Below are positions 1,369-13,007 of a stretch of 13,007 nucleotides of DNA, one piece after another. The translations under genes were made by a program, and so were the position numbers. Positions within the stretch are counted from its first letter, which is position 1. Every line of letters begins with the position of its first letter. The notes below the pieces were generated by a model. That model saw only the letters and a program-made list of their open reading frames with translations, did no database searches and had not been told where the DNA came from. The stretch comes from a virus (taxonomy: Duplodnaviria > Heunggongvirae > Uroviricota > Caudoviricetes), in IMG/VR virus record IMGVR_UViG_3300029162_000078, positions 1 to 13,007 of that record; one strand, given 5' to 3'.

Positions 1369-1444
1369 GCCGATATAGCTCAGTTGGTAGAGCAGCGCAT
1401 TCGTAATGCGAAGGTCGTAGGTTCGACTCCTATTATCGGCACCA
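1369..1444 (+). tRNA. thrW: tRNA-Thr (anticodon CGU)
   Basis: 76-nt sequence GCCGATATAGCTCAGTTGGTAGAGCAGCGCATTCGTAATGCGAAGGTCGTAGGTTCGACTCCTATTATCGGCACCA folds as a cloverleaf by hand: 7-bp acceptor stem, D-arm GCTC/GAGC, anticodon loop TTCGTAA (anticodon CGT), T-arm GTAGG/CCTAT, encoded CCA end. Confidence 0.93.
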
Positions 1445-1445
1445 T
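1399..1445 (+). repeat. attL: 47-bp direct repeat (3' end of thrW), left prophage junction
   Basis: Positions 1399-1445 are identical to 11853-11899, with mismatches immediately outside both ends (1398 c vs 11852 a; 1446 t vs 11900 c). The repeat covers the 3' part of the tRNA, typical of tRNA-targeting tyrosine integrases. Confidence 0.8.
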
Positions 1446-1458
1446 TAAAATCAATAAG

Positions 1459-2622
1459 TTACACATCATTAGTACCTTCCTTATTTTTTGACTGGGACAA
1501 ATTTGGGACCGATGGGTTCAGGATCGAGTCTATTTGCCGTGCGTGTTCGGTAAGGTGATTAGGTGCAAGGTGAGCATATCGACGAACCATTTCGATAGAC
1601 TCCCAGCCTCCCATTTCCTGTAACACTGACAACGGGACTCCGGCTTGAACCAGCCAACTTGCCCAGGTGTGTCTCAAGTCGTGAAATCTGAAATCATCAA
1701 TACCAGCCCGTCTCAGCGCCGCTTTCCAGGCTGTGTTTGCGTCATACCGCATCTTCCTTACTGTTGGCGCTTTCGTTCCGTCTGGTTTGGTACAGCTTTC
1801 CTTGTACACAAATACCCAACGGTGATGATTCCCGATTTGTTTTTTCAATACGCGACATGCAGTATCATTCAGCGCAACGCCAATTGCGCGGTTTGATTTA
1901 CTCTCTTCCGGGTTTATCCATGCCACCCGGCGCTGCATATCTATTTGTTGCCATTCAAGGTTGATGATGTTCGAGCGTCTTAAGCCTGTTGCCAGTGCAA
2001 ATTCAACAACAGACTTTAATGGCTCCGGACATTCATCAATCAGCCTTTGTGCTTCATGGGGCTCCAGCCAGCGGATCCGTTTATTCTTTGGTTGAGGCAC
2101 TTTAATAATTGGTGCCTTATCCAGCATTTTCCATTCACGCTCTGCGGCTCTTAGTAGGGCCTTTATAAATGAAAGATGCGTAGCCTTCGTTGCAACGGAC
2201 GCTGGTTTTGGCGTGTATTCTGGAACAGGTTTCCCTTTTTTTCTGCATGCTTCTGCCCTGAGTTTCCAGTTTTCCTCATGACGCCGGTTCGTCATTTTCT
2301 GCATTGCTGAATAAATTTTTGATTCAGTAATGTCTCTTAGTTGCATTCCTGCGAAATGTTGAAGCCAGAATCCGATCCGGCTTTTGTCATCGTCCAGCGA
2401 TTTTTTATGTGCTTTCTCTTCAAGCCACCTGACACACGCTTCCTCGAACGTTATATCAGGTATTTCACCAAGTTTGCTGACCCGCCATGCTTCAGCCTTT
2501 AGCTTGTCATGGAGTTCTGTCGCCTGCCTTTTGTCCTTTGTTCCAAGAGACTGTTTAAATCTTTTACCGTTCGGCAATGTGAAACTGGCGTACCATATTT
2601 CACCTCTGCGGAAGAGTGACAT
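1459..2622 (-). CDS. int: Tyrosine-type site-specific integrase, phage P22 Int-like
   Basis: 387-aa ORF. N-terminus [41 protein letters not shown] and C-terminal catalytic region (...[39 protein letters not shown]) match the P22-type integrase family as I recall it. Adjacent to the thrW att site. Confidence 0.9.
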
Positions 2623-7871: not shown

Positions 7872-7980
7872 CAAACGATGATTACATCCGCCTGTTGTCG
7901 GCACTGCTGCCGCCCGGTCCGGCGTGGTCAGCCAGCGATCCGGCGATTGCCGGTGCGGCACCGTCATTAACCCGCGTTCA
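7862..7980 (+). pseudogene. Truncated Mu gp48-like tail protein (DUF2313 family), N-terminal stub of about 30-40 codons
   Basis: Start ATG overlaps the gp47 stop. N-terminus [22 protein letters not shown] matches the conserved start of gp48/YmfQ-type proteins. The frame then runs antisense into the 3' end of tfa (stop at 7981-7983 on the minus strand), so the rest of the gene is deleted. Confidence 0.5.
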
Positions 7981-8418
7981 TCAGCGTGCGGATGCCGGAG
8001 GCGTAGGCCATTCAATATCTGGCGTACCGGAAGTATCGACCAGTTCCAGTGCGTCCAGATAATCCAGCCACAAATTATATTGCGCCAGTTCCTCACCTTT
8101 CAGGCGACCAATCGCCGCTTTACCAAGCCATTGCTTTCTGTTTATGTATTCGTTGATCTGATTAATCAATTGCTGCTTTTCCAATTCGGCTGCGGCAATT
8201 TGTTCCTCATGAGTTGGCGGTGGAATATCAATCCATGCAGGCATTCCGTCGATGACACCTCTGTATTTTCCTTCTGGTGCTTCCTTCATAAATTCGGCAG
8301 CAACAGTGTCGTCAATTTCGATTCCATCACCGGGCCATTCGCCGGATTCCTGATAAGCGATTTTAAGCTCCACAGGGAAAAACGCATTTTTATCGGCACT
8401 GAAAATATATTTCTGCAT
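7981..8418 (-). CDS. tfa: Tail fibre assembly protein (Tfa; U'-type copy of an invertible segment)
   Basis: 145-aa ORF with AGGA-type RBS. C-terminus ...[18 protein letters not shown] matches the conserved ...VDTSxxPDIEWP... end of E. coli Tfa proteins. Lies directly downstream of the tail-fibre variable fragment on the same strand. Confidence 0.75.
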
Positions 8419-8420
8419 TT

Positions 8421-8819
8421 CTACCGTCCTATCGAAACATAACTGAATCTGTATTGCTGTGAGATGTCACTGGTTGCCACACGCCACGCTGAATTACTGA
8501 TATGTTCAAAATTTACAGACAAAACCTGCGGGGCAGGACTCGACGGGTCTGACTGAACGGCATCAGACATAACACTGACTGAAACCATCGGCTGATTAGG
8601 GAATGGTATAGGGAAGTGTCCACTGATAAAGCGGGTCGTGTTTCCTGAAAAAGTGCCAAACTGAACAATATATCCACCTGGTAGCCTGAACCATCCCGAA
8701 CCAGAAGCGAATGCTCCCATATCCGGTATCTGATTATCTCCTGTGCCCACATCCCTTTTCGCCGCTTCTCCCAAACCAACGTTTATGAAAATGCAGAAAT
8801 AACGAGCAAATGGCATCAT
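8421..8819 (-). pseudogene. Tail fibre C-terminal variable segment (S'v-type), no functional start; remnant of the invertible segment
   Basis: Open frame ending TAG at 8421-8423, immediately upstream of tfa. The reading frame passes through the crossover site at 8766-8791, where in intact Gin/Pin systems the constant N-terminal tail-fibre part would be joined. No constant-part gene exists in this window. Confidence 0.5.
8766..8791. other. Din-family invertase crossover site (pix/gix/hix-like), right boundary of the former invertible segment
   Basis: TTCTCCCAAACC-AA-CGTTTATGAAAA: 26 bp with imperfect dyad symmetry and the AAACC-NN-GGTTT-like core of hix/gix/cix sites (recalled consensus). Located 55 bp upstream of the pin start, where the invertase-proximal site lies in Mu G, P1 C and e14 P segments. 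Confidence 0.5.
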
Positions 8820-8845
8820 TCCTGCTTTTGTCAGGGAGATCTACC

Positions 8846-9400
8846 ATGCTTATTGGCTATGTACGTGTGTCAACAAATGACCAGAACACAGATCTACAAC
8901 GTAATGCGCTGAACTGTGCAGGATGCGAGCTGATTTTTGAAGACAAGATAAGCGGTACAAAGTCCGAAAGGCCGGGACTGAAAAAACTGCTCAGGACATT
9001 ATCGGCAGGTGACACTCTGGTTGTCTGGAAGCTGGATCGGCTGGGGCGCAGTATGCGGCATCTGGTCATTCTGGTTGAGGAGTTGCGCGAACGTGGCGTT
9101 AATTTTCGCAGCCTGACGGATGCTATTGATACCAGCACACCGATGGGGCGTTTTTTCTTTCATGTGATGGGTGCCCTGGCTGAAATGGAACGAGAACTGA
9201 TTGTTGAACGAACAAAAGCTGGACTGGAAGCTGCTCGCGCACAGGGACGAATTGGTGGACGTCGTCCCAAACTTACACCAGAACAATGGGTGCAGGCCGG
9301 ACGATTAATTGCATCAGGCGTTCCTCGCCAGAAGGTGGCGATCATCTATGATGTTGGTATATCGACACTGTATAAGAAGTTTCCGGTCGGAGATAAATGA
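8846..9400 (+). CDS. pin: Serine recombinase, DNA invertase of the Pin/Gin/Cin/Hin (Din) family
   Basis: ATG at 8846 with AGGGAG RBS gives a 184-aa protein: MLIGYVRVSTNDQNTDLQ... (catalytic Ser in the YVRVST motif), resolvase core, C-terminal HTH (...GVPRQKVAIIYDVGISTLYKKF). The track ORF starts 12 codons upstream at 8810. Confidence 0.9.
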   Translation: MLIGYVRVSTNDQNTDLQRNALNCAGCELIFEDKISGTKSERPGLKKLLRTLSAGDTLVVWKLDRLGRSMRHLVILVEELRERGVNFRSLTDAIDTSTPMGRFFFHVMGALAEMERELIVERTKAGLEAARAQGRIGGRRPKLTPEQWVQAGRLIASGVPRQKVAIIYDVGISTLYKKFPVGDK

Positions 9401-9460: not shown

Positions 9461-10330
<870 letters not shown>

Positions 10331-10420
10331 CTAACCCTTTGAATTTACATAGCGCAAAAAGATACCTTTCCTCATAATGTGAGCTAATTTTATGTTTCGT
10401 TTGATGATCGGGTCGGTCTC

Positions 10421-10460
10421 GAAACCCGTAGCCACGTCATATGCAAGAACGTGCTACGAC
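10421..10460 (+). repeat. Copy B of the roughly 40-bp imperfect palindromic repeat
   Basis: GAAACCCGTAGCCACGTCATATGCAAGAACGTGCTACGAC aligns with copy A over about 80% of positions (GAAACC-GTAGC-ACGTC-TATGCAAGAA-CGTGCT-CG). Same orientation as A, on the other side of the GIY-YIG gene. Confidence 0.5.
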
Positions 10461-10673
10461 TGGCTGGTGAACTTCCGATAGTGCGAGTATTGAATTATTT
10501 CCAACTGTTATCGATTTTGCGTATTTTTTGCATGAGAGGATTTTTACCTCCTCCCACCGATCCTCCATGGCTTTACGCCAGTGTCTCTGGTCTGCTATGT
10601 GCCAGGAGCAGCCATTGCTAAGTCCATCCTGTATTGTGCAGGTCAGCTCGTTTTTAAAGAGTCCGGCCATCAT
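10437..10673 (-). CDS. Hypothetical small protein (78 aa), doubtful
   Basis: ORF MMAGLFKNELTCTIQDGLSNGCSWHIADQRHWRKAMEDRWEEVK... with no convincing Shine-Dalgarno sequence or promoter. Its 3' end overlaps repeat B. Retained only as a possibility. Confidence 0.2.
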   Translation of the reverse strand: MMAGLFKNELTCTIQDGLSNGCSWHIADQRHWRKAMEDRWEEVKILSCKKYAKSITVGNNSILALSEVHQPVVARSCI

Positions 10674-10811
10674 CTTACTGGTACAGACACCATATACTTT
10701 GTGACGGTCAGGCTACATATGCACAACTCAACTTATTCATCTATTTTTTGCTTTAGCATGTCAGTGTTGCTTTCTCGTCGGCGGGTGAGCGGTGACCTGA
10801 CCTGTCGATAA

Positions 10812-10848
10812 AGGAACGTAGCACGTTTTATGCAACACCCGCATGCGG
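10812..10848 (+). repeat. Copy C (more divergent) of the roughly 40-bp repeat
   Basis: GGAACGTAGCACGTTTTATGCAACACCCGCATGCGG shares the GTAGCACGT-NN-TATGCAA core with A and B, same orientation. Lies upstream of the flxA promoter. Confidence 0.4.
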
Positions 10849-10963
10849 CAGAAAATTATTGCCGAACGTTTACCCCTGTCAACAAGCTTTACTTTCTGAG
10901 GCGCGCCAGCCCGCGAGGAAAACAATCTGAACATCAAACAATTAATGACACAAGAAATACGAT

Positions 10964-10990
10964 TAAAGATTTTTTTGTGCATGTCGATAG
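10964..10990 (+). promoter_or_regulatory. Sigma-28 (FliA)-type promoter upstream of flxA
   Basis: TAAAGATT-(11 nt)-GTCGATAG against consensus TAAAGTTT-N11-GCCGATAA, 24 nt upstream of the flxA ATG. AGGAG RBS at about 11003-11007. Confidence 0.6.
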
Positions 10991-11013
10991 TGCTTTTTTA
11001 AAAGGAGAAATCT

Positions 11014-11346
11014 ATGTCTGTCACAATTCAGGGAAATACCTCAACCGTTATTTCAAACAACTCCGCCCCGGAAGGAACATCAGAAATAGCCAAAATCACA
11101 AGACAAATTCAGGTGCTGACTGAAAAGCTTGGGAAAATCTCATCGGAAGAGGGGATGACGACACAGCAGAAAAAAGAAATGGCTGCATTGGTACAGAAGC
11201 AAATTGAAAGCCTCAGGGCTCAACTGGAGCAGTTGTTAAGGCAGCAGGCAGAGAAAAAGAATGAAGACGCGACAGTTCAGCCTGATAAAAAAGAAGAGAA
11301 AAAAGACGATACAAATACCGCTGGCACCATTGATATTTACGTCTAA
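11014..11346 (+). CDS. flxA: FlxA-like protein (sigma-28-regulated prophage gene family)
   Basis: 110-aa ORF MSVTIQGNTSTVISNNSAPEGTSEIAKITRQIQVLTEKLGK... with coiled-coil and Lys/Glu-rich C-terminus, a strong RBS, a class-3 flagellar-type promoter upstream and a terminator downstream. Confidence 0.8.
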   Translation: MSVTIQGNTSTVISNNSAPEGTSEIAKITRQIQVLTEKLGKISSEEGMTTQQKKEMAALVQKQIESLRAQLEQLLRQQAEKKNEDATVQPDKKEEKKDDTNTAGTIDIYV

Positions 11347-11360
11347 GTGACAGCCGTATT

Positions 11361-11383
11361 GTGGCCCTCATCGGGCCACTTTT
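11361..11383 (+). terminator. Rho-independent terminator of flxA
   Basis: GTGGCCC-tcatc-GGGCCAC (perfect 7-bp GC-rich stem, 5-nt loop) followed by TTTT, starting 15 nt after the flxA stop. Confidence 0.6.
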
Positions 11384-11852
11384 CGCCATCAGCCTTTTCT
11401 TTAAAGACATATTATCTTTGTATCATTTCTGATAGTTAACATTACAAGATATAAGTAATGGACGCACTCCCAATTAGTCTATTTAAATCGCCACGAGTTT
11501 AACTGACAACCCATGATCAATTATGAATTGCAACTATTTCTGTAGTCACTTTTGTGGGGACAGTCCACAAAACTGCCAACTTCCGCTTCTTGCTCATAAC
11601 AGACATAAACTTCAGTTATGGCATAAAGGTATGCATGCTGGGTGGGGAAAGTATGAAGGAAAAGAAGACTGCTGCGCCGTTTGTCGTCACGTTTATCTTC
11701 ATTGGCTATGCAAGTCGTAATACAAGGTGGGACAAAACTGAGACACATAAGGCCTCGCAATGGCTTGCAAGGCTTTACATGTTTTGATGTGGTGGGACGT
11801 GTGAGCGCAGTGTTGATGGGGTAATGCTTTGAATTAGAAGTGGATTCTTATA

Positions 11853-11899
11853 ATTCGTAATGCGAAGGTCGTAGGTTCGACTCCTATTATCGGCACCAT
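11853..11899 (+). repeat. attR: 47-bp direct repeat duplicating the 3' end of thrW; right prophage junction
   Basis: Identical to 1399-1445. A partial tRNA-Thr 3' fragment without the 5' half of the tRNA. The right boundary of the island lies here. Confidence 0.8.
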
Positions 11900-12362
11900 C
11901 TTTTCTCGTAAAATCATCAAGTTACTATTGCAGTATTTTGCTTTGTTCAACACTAATGTGCAATTTTGCGCGTTGTAGGTGTGGCAAAATTGTGGCAAAG
12001 CTAATTGGTCAGCATTTGCATCATTACGCTAAACAAACTACTTCCTTATAAACGTAATGTGTTGACCTTATCGATGCGTTGCATGAAAGACAGTTTAGTG
12101 ATGAAAAATCTTATAAATTAACAGCTTAAATACATTATCCGATAGAGCTAAGTGCCAGAAAGGGACACTCAGGTTACATAACAATGAGTGATACAGTTCA
12201 CGTAGTGAAGGTACTATGCCTAGGTGTTTGATTACACTTTGATCATTGATGATACGCTCATGAAGGTATTACTTTCCTGTAATGAGCAGGTAGGTAACGA
12301 TGTCGAACTAAATGAATTTATAGTAAACTTTGCAACAAGAGAACAAGGGAGTATGAGGGGTT

Positions 12363-13007
12363 ATGGCTACTGCAGAGCAGATCAAAGCTTTATTGAAAAG
12401 CCACGTTGATCGTGATGATCAGCGTTTCTTTTCTATTGCTTTGCAGGTGGCAGCTAAGGAAGCAAGGCAAGGTCATCATAAGCTTGCTAATGATATAAAA
12501 AACTTAGTTGATAAAAATCAGAAAACAACGAGTTCTGTAGGTTTAGTTGAAAAACGACTTACACCATTTGTTAAGCAGCCTGATGGTGATCTTAAGGGGT
12601 TACTTGAGCAAACGAACAAGCCAGTACATCTTCAAGATCTGGTGATTTCTGGAAGCGTTAGGGAAAGATTGAATCAGGTTCTGCTTGAACAAAAACAGAA
12701 AGATAAACTTTCTGAGTTTGGGCTTATTCCAAGAAGAAAAATTCTTTTCACTGGTCCTCCCGGTACTGGTAAGACAATGTCCGCATCAGTCATTGCTACA
12801 GAGTTAAAGCTACCACTTTATACAGTCGTCTTAGATAATCTAATCACTCGCTATATGGGTGAAACTGCAGCTAAGCTGCGTTTAATTTTTGACCACATAC
12901 GGCAAACAAGAGCTGTATATTTTTTTGACGAGTTCGATGCTATAGGAACTCAGCGTGGCGCTCAGAATGACGTTGGAGAAATTCGGGTAATGACTCCAAC
13001 TTATTGA
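12363..13007 (+). CDS. Classic-clade AAA+ ATPase with N-terminal helical domain; ORF ends about 30 codons after Walker B (truncated, frameshifted, or cut by the window)
   Basis: Walker A ILFTGPPGTGKT, then YMGETAAKLRLIF and Walker B AVYFFDEFDAIG with the following TQRG motif. The ORF stops (TGA 13005-13007) before the expected NQLL...DG sensor region. The +2 frame over the last about 20 nt reads ...NDSNLL, which resembles that expected continuation. Preceded by about 460 bp of AT-rich non-coding DNA. Confidence 0.7.
   Translation: MATAEQIKALLKSHVDRDDQRFFSIALQVAAKEARQGHHKLANDIKNLVDKNQKTTSSVGLVEKRLTPFVKQPDGDLKGLLEQTNKPVHLQDLVISGSVRERLNQVLLEQKQKDKLSEFGLIPRRKILFTGPPGTGKTMSASVIATELKLPLYTVVLDNLITRYMGETAAKLRLIFDHIRQTRAVYFFDEFDAIGTQRGAQNDVGEIRVMTPTY

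What the first reader, a model, noticed from the sequence alone, without database searches (positions are those of the whole stretch)
10964..11383. Prophage-borne flxA-like gene retains a sigma-28 promoter, tying the remnant to the flagellar regulon
Seen in sequence: TAAAGATT-N11-GTCGATAG (6 of 8 in each consensus element), a strong RBS, a 110-aa coiled-coil protein and a clean terminator. Established knowledge: flxA was identified as a FliA-dependent gene inside a cryptic prophage in E. coli K-12. Inference: this copy is kept as an intact, host-regulated unit while the surrounding prophage decays, suggesting selection on it.
Basis: partly seen in the sequence, partly recalled or inferred. Interest (0 to 1): 0.35.

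Follow-up and report, generated by a model that had tools for sequence, protein, structure and literature searches.

The report
Known flxA gene, variant flagellar promoter
This is the already known E. coli gene flxA with its flagellar sigma-28 promoter, sitting in a different decayed prophage from the one in K-12 and carrying a rare single-base change in the promoter, so it is an ordinary feature with a small twist.

Summary
TAAAGATT-N11-GTCGATAG (10964-10990), an AAGGAG ribosome-binding site, a 110-aa ORF (11014-11346) and a GC hairpin (11361-11379) are all present.

The gene is flxA itself, not merely flxA-like. It differs from K-12 Qin flxA at 1 of 333 coding bases, inside a roughly 1-kb cassette shared with Qin. 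FliA binding and FliA dependence are published for the K-12 promoter.

- **Location.** This copy lies at the right end of a 10.45-kb prophage remnant integrated at tRNA-Thr thrW, not in Qin.
- **Promoter.** "Retains" is only half right. The -10 element carries a derived C-to-T at 10984. That exact promoter allele occurs in 13 of 1199 E. coli records; the K-12 allele occurs in 1106 of 1203.

The variant still scores within the range of validated FliA promoters, so I expect it to work, possibly more weakly.

Across the FlxA family (about 30-87% identity, including chromosomal Pantoea genes), a sigma-28 motif sits 23-32 nt upstream of the ATG in 10 of 11 loci. dN/dS is 0.11-0.29. Selection is therefore supported for the family, but not specifically for this copy.

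Verdict: already known, low interest.

The parts
10964..10971 (+). sigma-28 -35 element TAAAGATT (7 of 8 to TAAAGTTT)
   Evidence: Read directly. Identical to the K-12 flxA FliA motif in Fitzgerald 2014, Table 2.
10983..10990 (+). sigma-28 -10 element GTCGATAG (6 of 8 to GCCGATAA). The T at 10984 is a derived change in the 'GC' extended -10 dinucleotide. The spacer is 11 nt (10972-10982).
   Evidence: Alignment to K-12, which has GCCGATAG. Allele counts: 13 of 1199 records versus 1106 of 1203. PWM score 16.9 versus 19.6 bits.
10998..10998 (+). Inferred transcription start, 8 nt after the -10 element. This is not mapped here.
   Evidence: Inference from the sigma-28 numbering (-15)GCCGATAA(-8) given in PMC12784957.
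11002..11007 (+). Ribosome-binding site AAGGAG, 6 nt upstream of the ATG
11014..11346 (+). flxA coding sequence, 110 aa, intact. It carries R68, the ancestral residue; K-12 has W68.
   Evidence: Pfam PF14282 at 54.7 bits against a cut-off of 26.3. PHROG 11044 at E = 1.9e-71.
11361..11383 (+). Probable intrinsic terminator: 7-bp G+C stem, 5-nt loop, then TTTT
   Evidence: Fold. Not called by the consensus scan because it has only 4 T.
10581..11606 (+). The ~1-kb cassette shared with K-12 prophage Qin (5'-truncated ydfV plus flxA with its promoter and terminator), 98.9% identical. Mismatches cluster at the two ends.
   Evidence: blastn against NC_000913 1645972-1646997
10581..10811 (+). ydfV remnant lacking its 5' end
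   Evidence: Homology starts 75 nt inside K-12 ydfV. Annotated as an N-terminally incomplete ydfV pseudogene in strain BE2-5.
1399..1445 (+). Left 47-bp direct repeat (attL), the 3' part of tRNA-Thr(CGU) thrW (tRNA at 1369-1444)
11853..11899 (+). Right 47-bp direct repeat (attR). It marks the end of the prophage remnant, about 500 bp past flxA.
   Evidence: Homology to other strains' thrW prophages stops at 11899.
1459..2622 (-). Tyrosine integrase of the remnant
   Evidence: Pfam Phage_integrase at E = 3.2e-48

Best explanation
The feature is flxA, the known FliA-dependent (class 3 flagellar regulon) gene of E. coli, carried as a self-contained unit of promoter, ribosome-binding site, ORF and terminator. 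Here the unit sits at the right end of a 10.45-kb prophage remnant integrated at thrW, rather than in the lambdoid prophage Qin.

Mechanism:
- When the hook-basal body is complete and the anti-sigma factor FlgM is exported, free sigma-28 (FliA) loads onto RNA polymerase.
- The holoenzyme recognises TAAAGATT-N11-GTCGATAG, starts near 10998 and makes a monocistronic mRNA of about 385 nt that ends at the hairpin at 11361-11383.
- The mRNA is translated from a strong AAGGAG site into a 110-aa helical-hairpin protein with disordered ends.

The promoter carries a derived C-to-T in the extended -10 'GC'. I expect this to leave it FliA-dependent, perhaps with reduced strength.

Shown here: sequence identity to K-12 flxA, the location in a thrW element, the allele frequencies, and conservation of the promoter and coding sequence across the family.

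Taken from the literature, for the K-12 allele only: FliA binding and FliA dependence.

Inferred: activity of the T allele, the start site, termination, and everything about what the protein does.
For: Identity and location:
- Only 3 differences from K-12 in 651 nt around flxA, 1 of them in the 333-nt CDS.
- The cassette 10581-11606 is 98.9% identical to Qin.
- The element is bounded by 47-bp thrW repeats and has its own integrase.

Published data for the K-12 promoter:
- The motif TAAAGATTTTTTTGTGCATGCCGATAGT is bound by FliA in ChIP-seq, with a fold-above-threshold (FAT) score of 16.
- flxA RNA falls from 280 to 2 in a fliA deletion (PMC4183435, Table 2).
- flxA is down 28-fold in a fliA deletion and up 8-fold on sigma-F induction (PMC1935009).

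Tolerance of the T allele:
- Five FliA-bound K-12 sites have GTCGAT.
- One of them is the yjdA-yjcZ promoter (FAT 19), whose transcripts are strongly FliA-dependent (yjdA 111 to 11, yjcZ 52 to 1).
- The window allele scores 16.9-17.0 bits. That equals yjcZ and trg and exceeds fliC, aer and ycgR.
- PMC12784957, citing Koo 2009, states that a single mutation of either extended -10 base has no significant effect, whereas the double mutation is severe.

Family conservation:
- A sigma-28 motif lies 23-32 nt upstream of the ATG in 10 of 11 FlxA-family loci, despite unalignable spacers and flanks. An eleventh locus has a weaker motif.
- dN/dS is 0.11-0.29.
- No sigma-70-like site lies on the + strand near the gene.
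Against: - No expression data exist for this allele.
- The mutated base is C in 43 of 52 FliA-bound K-12 sites and in 9 of the 10 other family loci, with A in L017.
- The substitution costs 2.7 bits.
- The -10 element already deviates at its last position (G instead of A), so the two deviations together could matter more than either alone.
- Koo 2009, the primary mutational study, could not be read.
- The terminator has only four U.
- Nothing here establishes what FlxA does. The structure search returned only generic helical hairpins.
Confidence: 0.85

Rival explanations
1. The C-to-T change at 10984 cripples the sigma-28 promoter. On this reading the copy is the first step of decay, not a retained host-regulated unit, and the gene is silent or only weakly expressed.
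For: - The exact promoter allele is rare, at 13 of 1199 records. The records inspected are all of the thrW-prophage type.
- The position is C in 9 of the 10 other family loci (A in L017) and in 43 of 52 FliA sites.
- The score drops by 2.7 bits.
- The element already has a non-consensus last base.
- Neighbouring ydfV is truncated and the prophage is decaying.
Against: - GTCGAT occurs in five FliA-bound sites in vivo, one of which drives clearly FliA-dependent transcription.
- Single substitutions in the extended -10 are reported as mild.
- The core CGATA, the 7-of-8 -35 element and the 11-nt spacer are untouched.
- The ORF, ribosome-binding site and hairpin are intact.
Confidence: 0.1
2. The gene is expressed mainly from elsewhere, by read-through from upstream prophage genes or from a sigma-70 promoter, and the sigma-28 motif is irrelevant in this context.
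For: - The ydfV remnant lies on the same strand immediately upstream.
- The motif alone is only marginally beyond chance.
Against: - No sigma-70-like site on the + strand in 10400-11900.
- ydfV has lost its 5' end, and with it its own promoter region.
- The next gene upstream (9461-10285) is on the opposite strand.
- In K-12, flxA RNA falls 140-fold without FliA, so nothing else drives it there.
Confidence: 0.04
3. The promoter-like motif is a chance match and the ORF is a spurious small ORF.
For: 15 of 200 shuffles of the window give a match with up to 3 mismatches.
Against: - It is orthologous to an experimentally defined promoter and gene.
- The motif is kept at the same distance from the ATG in homologues of about 30-87% identity.
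- dN/dS is well below 1.
- It matches the Pfam family above the gathering score.
- FlxA peptides have been detected by mass spectrometry (PMC6391000).
Confidence: 0.01

Closest known systems
flxA (b1566) of E. coli K-12 cryptic prophage Qin, with its FliA-dependent promoter (Ide and Kutsukake 1997, as cited in PMC4183435 and PMC6551532)
   Same: Same gene and same cassette. There is 1 nt and 1 aa difference in the CDS. The -35 element, spacer, ribosome-binding site and terminator are identical, and the shared region is 98.9% identical over 1026 bp.
   Different: - Host element: a thrW-integrated remnant with Mu-type baseplate genes, a Pin-type invertase and a GIY-YIG gene, instead of lambdoid Qin with relBE-ydfV upstream.
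- ydfV is truncated.
- The -10 element is GTCGATAG instead of GCCGATAG.
- Residue 68 is R (ancestral) instead of W.
Canonical class 3 flagellar (sigma-28) promoters such as tar, flgM, tsr and fliC. For the GTCGAT variant, the closest is the yjdA-yjcZ promoter.
   Same: The architecture TAAAG-type -35, N11 spacer, CGATA-core -10. The score lies within the range of validated promoters.
   Different: The product has no known role in flagellar assembly or motility (PMC4183435). The extended -10 is GT rather than GC.
Phage 'morons': self-contained promoter-gene-terminator units carried in prophages and expressed independently of the phage programme. This comparison rests on my own knowledge of the concept.
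   Same: - A compact autonomous unit at the edge of a prophage.
- The same unit occurs in unrelated elements: Qin, the thrW remnant, and the complete 48.7-kb phage PhiR42_1.
- Related copies lie next to integrases in Enterobacter and Pantoea ananatis.
   Different: The promoter is specific for an alternative host sigma factor. The family also has chromosomal, non-prophage members in Pantoea, so the unit may be a captured host gene rather than a phage invention.

Membership tests
flxA orthologue (E. coli b1566) | Near-identity of the coding sequence to K-12 flxA | tested here: met
   332 of 333 nt and 109 of 110 aa identical
FlxA-like protein family (Pfam PF14282) | Match to the family profile above the gathering score | tested here: met
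   54.7 bits against a cut-off of 26.3, E = 1.2e-14, profile positions 2-96 of 101
Sigma-28 (FliA) dependent promoter | -35 element close to TAAAGTTT | tested here: met
   TAAAGATT, 7 of 8
Sigma-28 (FliA) dependent promoter | Spacer of 11 nt (11-12 tolerated) between the octamers | tested here: met
   11 nt, 10972-10982
Sigma-28 (FliA) dependent promoter | -10 region GCCGATAA: a core CGATA plus the extended -10 'GC' | tested here: inconclusive
   The core CGATA is present. The extended -10 is GT instead of GC, and the last base is G instead of A, giving 6 of 8. GTCGAT is found in 5 of 52 FliA-bound K-12 sites. The PWM score is 16.9 bits, within the validated range.
Sigma-28 (FliA) dependent promoter | FliA binding, and loss of the transcript in a fliA mutant | not testable with these tools
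   Published for the K-12 allele only: ChIP-seq FAT 16 and RNA 280 versus 2; down 28.4-fold in a fliA deletion. Nothing exists for the T allele.
Intrinsic (Rho-independent) terminator | G+C-rich hairpin directly followed by a U-rich tract | tested here: inconclusive
   7-bp G+C stem and 5-nt loop, with fold z = -2.8. Only four T follow, so it falls below the scan's threshold.
Qin cryptic prophage gene | Location inside Qin, next to relBE and a complete ydfV | tested here: not met
   Homology to Qin is limited to 10581-11606. The element is bounded by thrW repeats next to proA.
Phage moron | An autonomous promoter and terminator flanking a gene that is not part of the phage modules, found in otherwise unrelated phages | tested here: met
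   Own promoter and hairpin. The same cassette occurs in Qin, in thrW remnants and in phage PhiR42_1. Expression from the prophage state was not tested here.

The most novel reading that the evidence does not exclude
flxA may not be a phage gene that acquired a host promoter. It may instead be an old chromosomal member of the flagellar class 3 regulon in Enterobacterales.

Evidence for a chromosomal origin:
- In Pantoea it sits in a fixed core position: gltX, valUXY-lysV tRNAs, flxA-like, yfeR, yfeH, ypeB, ligA.
- Two lineages whose proteins are only 55% identical share that synteny.
- On this reading the gene has been picked up together with its sigma-28 promoter and passed as a ~1-kb cassette between unrelated mobile elements.

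A second, linked idea is that its product is a late export substrate of the flagellar type III apparatus:
- It has a disordered N-terminus followed by a helical hairpin.
- It has class 3 timing.
- FlxA was found enriched in a culture exoproteome alongside FlgK, FliD, FliC, FlgL and FlgM.
- Its mRNA and protein levels move in opposite directions at 42 C, where flagellar export fails.
Probability: 0.3. Interest if true: 0.45.

Novelty: already known. Interest (0 to 1): 0.15.

Why it matters
As stated, the finding re-discovers a textbook-level fact: flxA is a FliA-dependent gene in a cryptic prophage. It therefore matters little.

Three modest additions come out of the check:
- The flxA unit is a mobile ~1-kb cassette found in at least two unrelated E. 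coli prophage types, and in a complete phage genome.
- This copy carries a rare natural variant of the extended -10 element. It would make a convenient natural test of how much that dinucleotide contributes to sigma-28 promoter strength.
- The sigma-28 promoter is conserved across the whole FlxA family, including chromosomal Pantoea genes. This argues that the still-unknown function of FlxA is genuinely tied to late flagellar assembly, and perhaps to flagellar export.

Tried and rejected
- **Different gene from the Qin copy:** rejected. It is the same cassette at 98.9-99.5% identity.
- **Exact match for the whole 13-kb window among complete E. coli genomes:** none found. The best record covers 67%, so the precise strain and arrangement are not in that collection.
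- **Koo et al. 2009 (PMC2756079), the primary mutational analysis of sigma-28 promoters:** not held. I relied on a later paper's summary of it and on natural FliA-bound sites.
- **Consensus terminator scan:** it did not call the flxA hairpin. Folding supports the hairpin.
- **Function of FlxA:**
  - No solved relative by sequence; best E = 0.07.
  - No NCBIfam match.
  - PHROGs lists it only as 'unknown function'.
  - The AlphaFold model has confident helices but mean pLDDT of only 65.6.
  - Foldseek against the PDB gave no match with E below 0.5. All hits were generic helical hairpins, including a FliJ/CdsO-type stalk protein at E = 1.4, which I do not count as evidence.
- **One-genome-per-species scan:** returned only 5 loci. 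Diverged homologues had to be reached through the protein searches and contig look-ups.
- **Supplementary tables of PMC6551532**, needed for the direction of the flxA mRNA/protein discordance: not held.
- **Rfam scan of the window:** found only the tRNA.
- **Inverted repeats for the Pin invertase:** none around the tail-fibre segment.

Full report
**1. What is there**

Reading the region and locating the elements by script gives the following on the + strand:
- TAAAGATT at 10964-10971, an 11-nt spacer, then GTCGATAG at 10983-10990.
- AAGGAG at 11002-11007, 6 nt before an ATG at 11014.
- A 110-codon ORF ending at 11346.
- The hairpin GTGGCCC-TCATC-GGGCCAC at 11361-11379, followed by TTTTCGCC.

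- The -35 element matches TAAAGTTT at 7 of 8 positions, not 6 of 8. The -10 element matches GCCGATAA at 6 of 8.
- The hairpin folds well (-18.1 kcal/mol for the 61-nt stretch, z = -2.8). Its U-tract has only four residues, so the consensus terminator scan missed it.
- The motif on its own is only marginally unusual. There is 1 match with up to 3 mismatches against 0.09 expected, and 15 of 200 shuffles also give one.

I also scored the site with a position weight matrix (PWM) built from 51 published FliA-bound sites, leaving flxA out. It is the best site in the window at 16.9 bits, with the next at 14.8. Five of 300 randomisations reach that score.

**2. It is flxA itself**

- The 901 bases around the gene match 1204 of 5426 complete E. 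coli genomes, where the gene is annotated flxA or FlxA-like.
- Against K-12 MG1655 there are three differences in 651 nt: 10821, 10984 (T here, C in K-12) and 11215 (AGG for R68 here, TGG for W68 in K-12).
- The protein matches Pfam FlxA PF14282 above the gathering score.
- Diverged homologues all have R at position 68, so the K-12 tryptophan is the derived state.

**3. It is not in Qin**

- Homology to the K-12 Qin region is confined to window 10581-11606 (98.9% identity). It begins 75 nt inside ydfV and ends between flxA and ydfW.
- The window starts with proA, followed by tRNA-Thr(CGU) thrW at 1369-1444.
- A perfect 47-bp direct repeat of the tRNA's 3' part lies at 1399-1445 and 11853-11899.
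- Between the repeats lie:
  - a tyrosine integrase;
  - small CPS-53-like genes;
  - Mu-type baseplate genes (gp44/P, gp45, gp46, baseplate J);
  - a rearranged tail-fibre segment;
  - a Pin-type invertase;
  - a LEM-3-like GIY-YIG gene;
  - the ydfV remnant and flxA.
- flxA therefore sits about 500 bp from the right end of a 10.45-kb remnant at the thrW site.
- Past 11899 a different island begins, with an AAA-ATPase ORF from 12363.
- The exact left junction of the cassette is present in only 33 complete genomes. Another thrW prophage, in strain BE2-5, has the cassette with a different left neighbour.
- The same cassette with relBE and a complete ydfV also occurs in the 48.7-kb phage PhiR42_1 of ECOR13, which is deposited as a complete genome.

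**4. The promoter allele**

- The 80-nt stretch with the window's promoter is matched exactly in 13 of 1199 records. The K-12 version is matched exactly in 1106 of 1203.
- The records with the T allele that I inspected are of the thrW-prophage type. BE2-5 is also of the thrW type but has C.
- The T at 10984 is therefore a recent, rare change within the thrW-type lineage. 'Retains' holds for the architecture but not for the sequence.

**5. Would the variant still work?**

Published data for the K-12 allele:
- FliA ChIP-seq gives a peak with a fold-above-threshold (FAT) score of 16 over the motif TAAAGATTTTTTTGTGCATGCCGATAGT. flxA RNA is 280 in motile MG1655 against 2 in a fliA deletion (PMC4183435, Table 2).
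- flxA is down 28.4-fold in a fliA deletion and up 8.2-fold after sigma-F induction (PMC1935009).

Evidence bearing on the T allele:
- In the same ChIP-seq table, five bound sites carry GTCGAT: holA, rluF, evgS, hslU and yjdA-yjcZ. The yjdA-yjcZ site (FAT 19) drives FliA-dependent transcripts, yjdA 111 to 11 and yjcZ 52 to 1.
- The PWM score drops from 19.6 to 16.9 bits. That equals yjcZ and trg and is above fliC, aer and ycgR.
- A 2026 structural paper places the two bases in the extended -10 element, contacted by one arginine. Citing Koo 2009, it reports that mutating either base alone has no significant effect, whereas mutating both is severe (PMC12784957).
- I could not read Koo 2009 itself.

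My reading is that the promoter remains FliA-dependent and may be somewhat weaker. This is inference, not measurement.

**6. Is there selection?**

I collected family members through protein searches and fetched their loci.

A sigma-28 motif lies 23-32 nt upstream of the ATG in 10 of 11 loci, at 15.9-23.5 bits. The flanks and spacers are otherwise unalignable.

| Locus | Source or context | Protein identity to window FlxA | Motif |
|---|---|---|---|
| L012 | Enterobacter, island near icd with an integrase | 87% | TAAAGATA-N11-GCCGATAG |
| L015 | metagenome contig | 68% | TAAAGTCT-N11-GCCGATAC |
| L009 | metagenome contig, non-phage neighbours | 66% | TAAATTTA-N11-ACCGATAT |
| L007 | metagenome-assembled Enterobacteriaceae genome | 62% | TAAATTTC-N11-GCCGATAT |
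| L023 | Pantoea ananatis | 54% | TAAAGTTT-N11-GCCGATAA (perfect consensus) |
| L017 | metagenome contig | 45% | TAAAGATT-N11-GACGATAA |
| L020 | metagenome contig | 40% | TAAAGTCT-N12-GCCGATAA |
| L021 | Pantoea chromosome | about 30% | TAAAGTCG-N11-GCCGATAA |
| L018 | Pantoea-type synteny | 38% | TCAAGCTG-N12-TCCGATAA (weaker, 11.9 bits) |

Further points:
- dN/dS between members is 0.11-0.29, with dS of 0.26-1.7.
- In Pantoea the gene is chromosomal. It lies between gltX with the valUXY-lysV tRNA cluster and yfeR-yfeH-ypeB-ligA. Proteins only 55% identical share that synteny.

Promoter and protein are therefore under purifying selection across the family. The link to sigma-28 is a property of the family, not of the E. 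coli prophage copy.

Within E. coli the gene is accessory (22% of complete genomes). It is split by IS1 in some strains (H18-H20). In one fetched locus, L008, the ATG has become ATA. Selection on this particular copy is not demonstrated.

**7. The protein**

- The AlphaFold2 model, built on an 18-sequence family alignment, gives disordered residues 1-18, helix 20-42, a loop, helix 50-86, and disordered residues 87-110. Block-mean pLDDT is 79-89 in the helices and the overall mean is 65.6.
- There is no solved relative by sequence. Foldseek finds only generic helical hairpins, none with E below 0.5.
- Function remains unknown.

Two literature leads point the same way:
- FlxA was enriched 3.4-fold in an E. 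coli-containing culture exoproteome together with FlgK, FliD, FliC, FlgL and FlgM. Those five are the late substrates of the flagellar export apparatus (PMC6391000, Table 1).
- flxA mRNA and protein change in opposite directions at 42 C, the condition in which FlgM export fails (PMC6551532). The direction of each change is not given in the main text.

Combined with the disordered N-terminus and class 3 timing, this makes export through the flagellar apparatus a testable guess. It is no more than that.

**8. Verdict**

The gene and its regulation are already known.

The new details are the second prophage context, the rare extended -10 variant, and family-wide conservation of the sigma-28 promoter, including chromosomal members. 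They are modest. Interest: 0.15.

Noticed in passing
window 1399-1445 and 11853-11899; 11900-13007: Perfect 47-bp direct repeats of the thrW 3' end bound the prophage remnant. Directly after the right repeat a different island begins, with an AAA-ATPase ORF from 12363 that runs off the window. In other strains the yagP (LysR) remnant and paoD follow instead. This suggests tandem occupancy of the thrW site.
   Followed up: partly
window 11215 (codon 68 of flxA): The window has R68 and K-12 has W68. All diverged homologues have R, so the reference K-12 FlxA carries the derived residue in the middle of helix 2.
   Followed up: yes
E. coli records H18-H20; L008 2934-3020: flxA is interrupted by IS1 in several E. 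coli strains. In L008 (strain ECGI0523) the start codon is ATA and the frame is broken, so the gene is dispensable in some lineages.
   Followed up: partly
proteins P0131 (3361 aa) and P0146 (2729 aa): Two giant proteins contain 17 and 7 repeated stretches similar to FlxA residues 8-50 (36-37% identity). Their origin and meaning are unknown.
   Followed up: no
literature: PMC6391000 Table 1; PMC6551532: FlxA is enriched in a culture exoproteome together with the flagellar late export substrates FlgK, FliD, FliC, FlgL and FlgM. Its mRNA and protein levels diverge at 42 C, where flagellar export is impaired. Both hint that FlxA may itself be exported by the flagellar apparatus.
   Followed up: partly
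L021 2897-4339; L018 162-3479: In Pantoea the flxA-like gene is chromosomal. It lies between gltX with three tRNA-Val and one tRNA-Lys, and the yfeR-yfeH-ypeB-ligA block, and has its own sigma-28 motif. Members of this branch share a conserved C-terminal G(I/V)NRPTDxNxIDIYI motif.
   Followed up: partly
window 10434-10523: A ~90-nt stretch just left of the cassette is 82-84% similar to two places in K-12 Qin, L001 21168-21257 and, inverted, L001 2467-2552. Parts of 10330-10620 occur in more than 2000 E. coli genomes. It appears to be a short repeated prophage element of unknown nature.
   Followed up: no
window 8389-8416, minus strand: The second-best sigma-28-like match in the window is GCAGAAAT-N11-GCCGATAA at 14.8 bits. 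It has a good -10 element but a poor -35 element and lies inside the tail-fibre assembly region. It is probably a chance match.
   Followed up: no
window 7900-9400: The Pin-type invertase (8810-9400) is intact. The adjacent tail-fibre segment is shortened relative to strain QEC11-421, and no inverted repeats for inversion were found, so the invertible switch looks defunct.
   Followed up: partly
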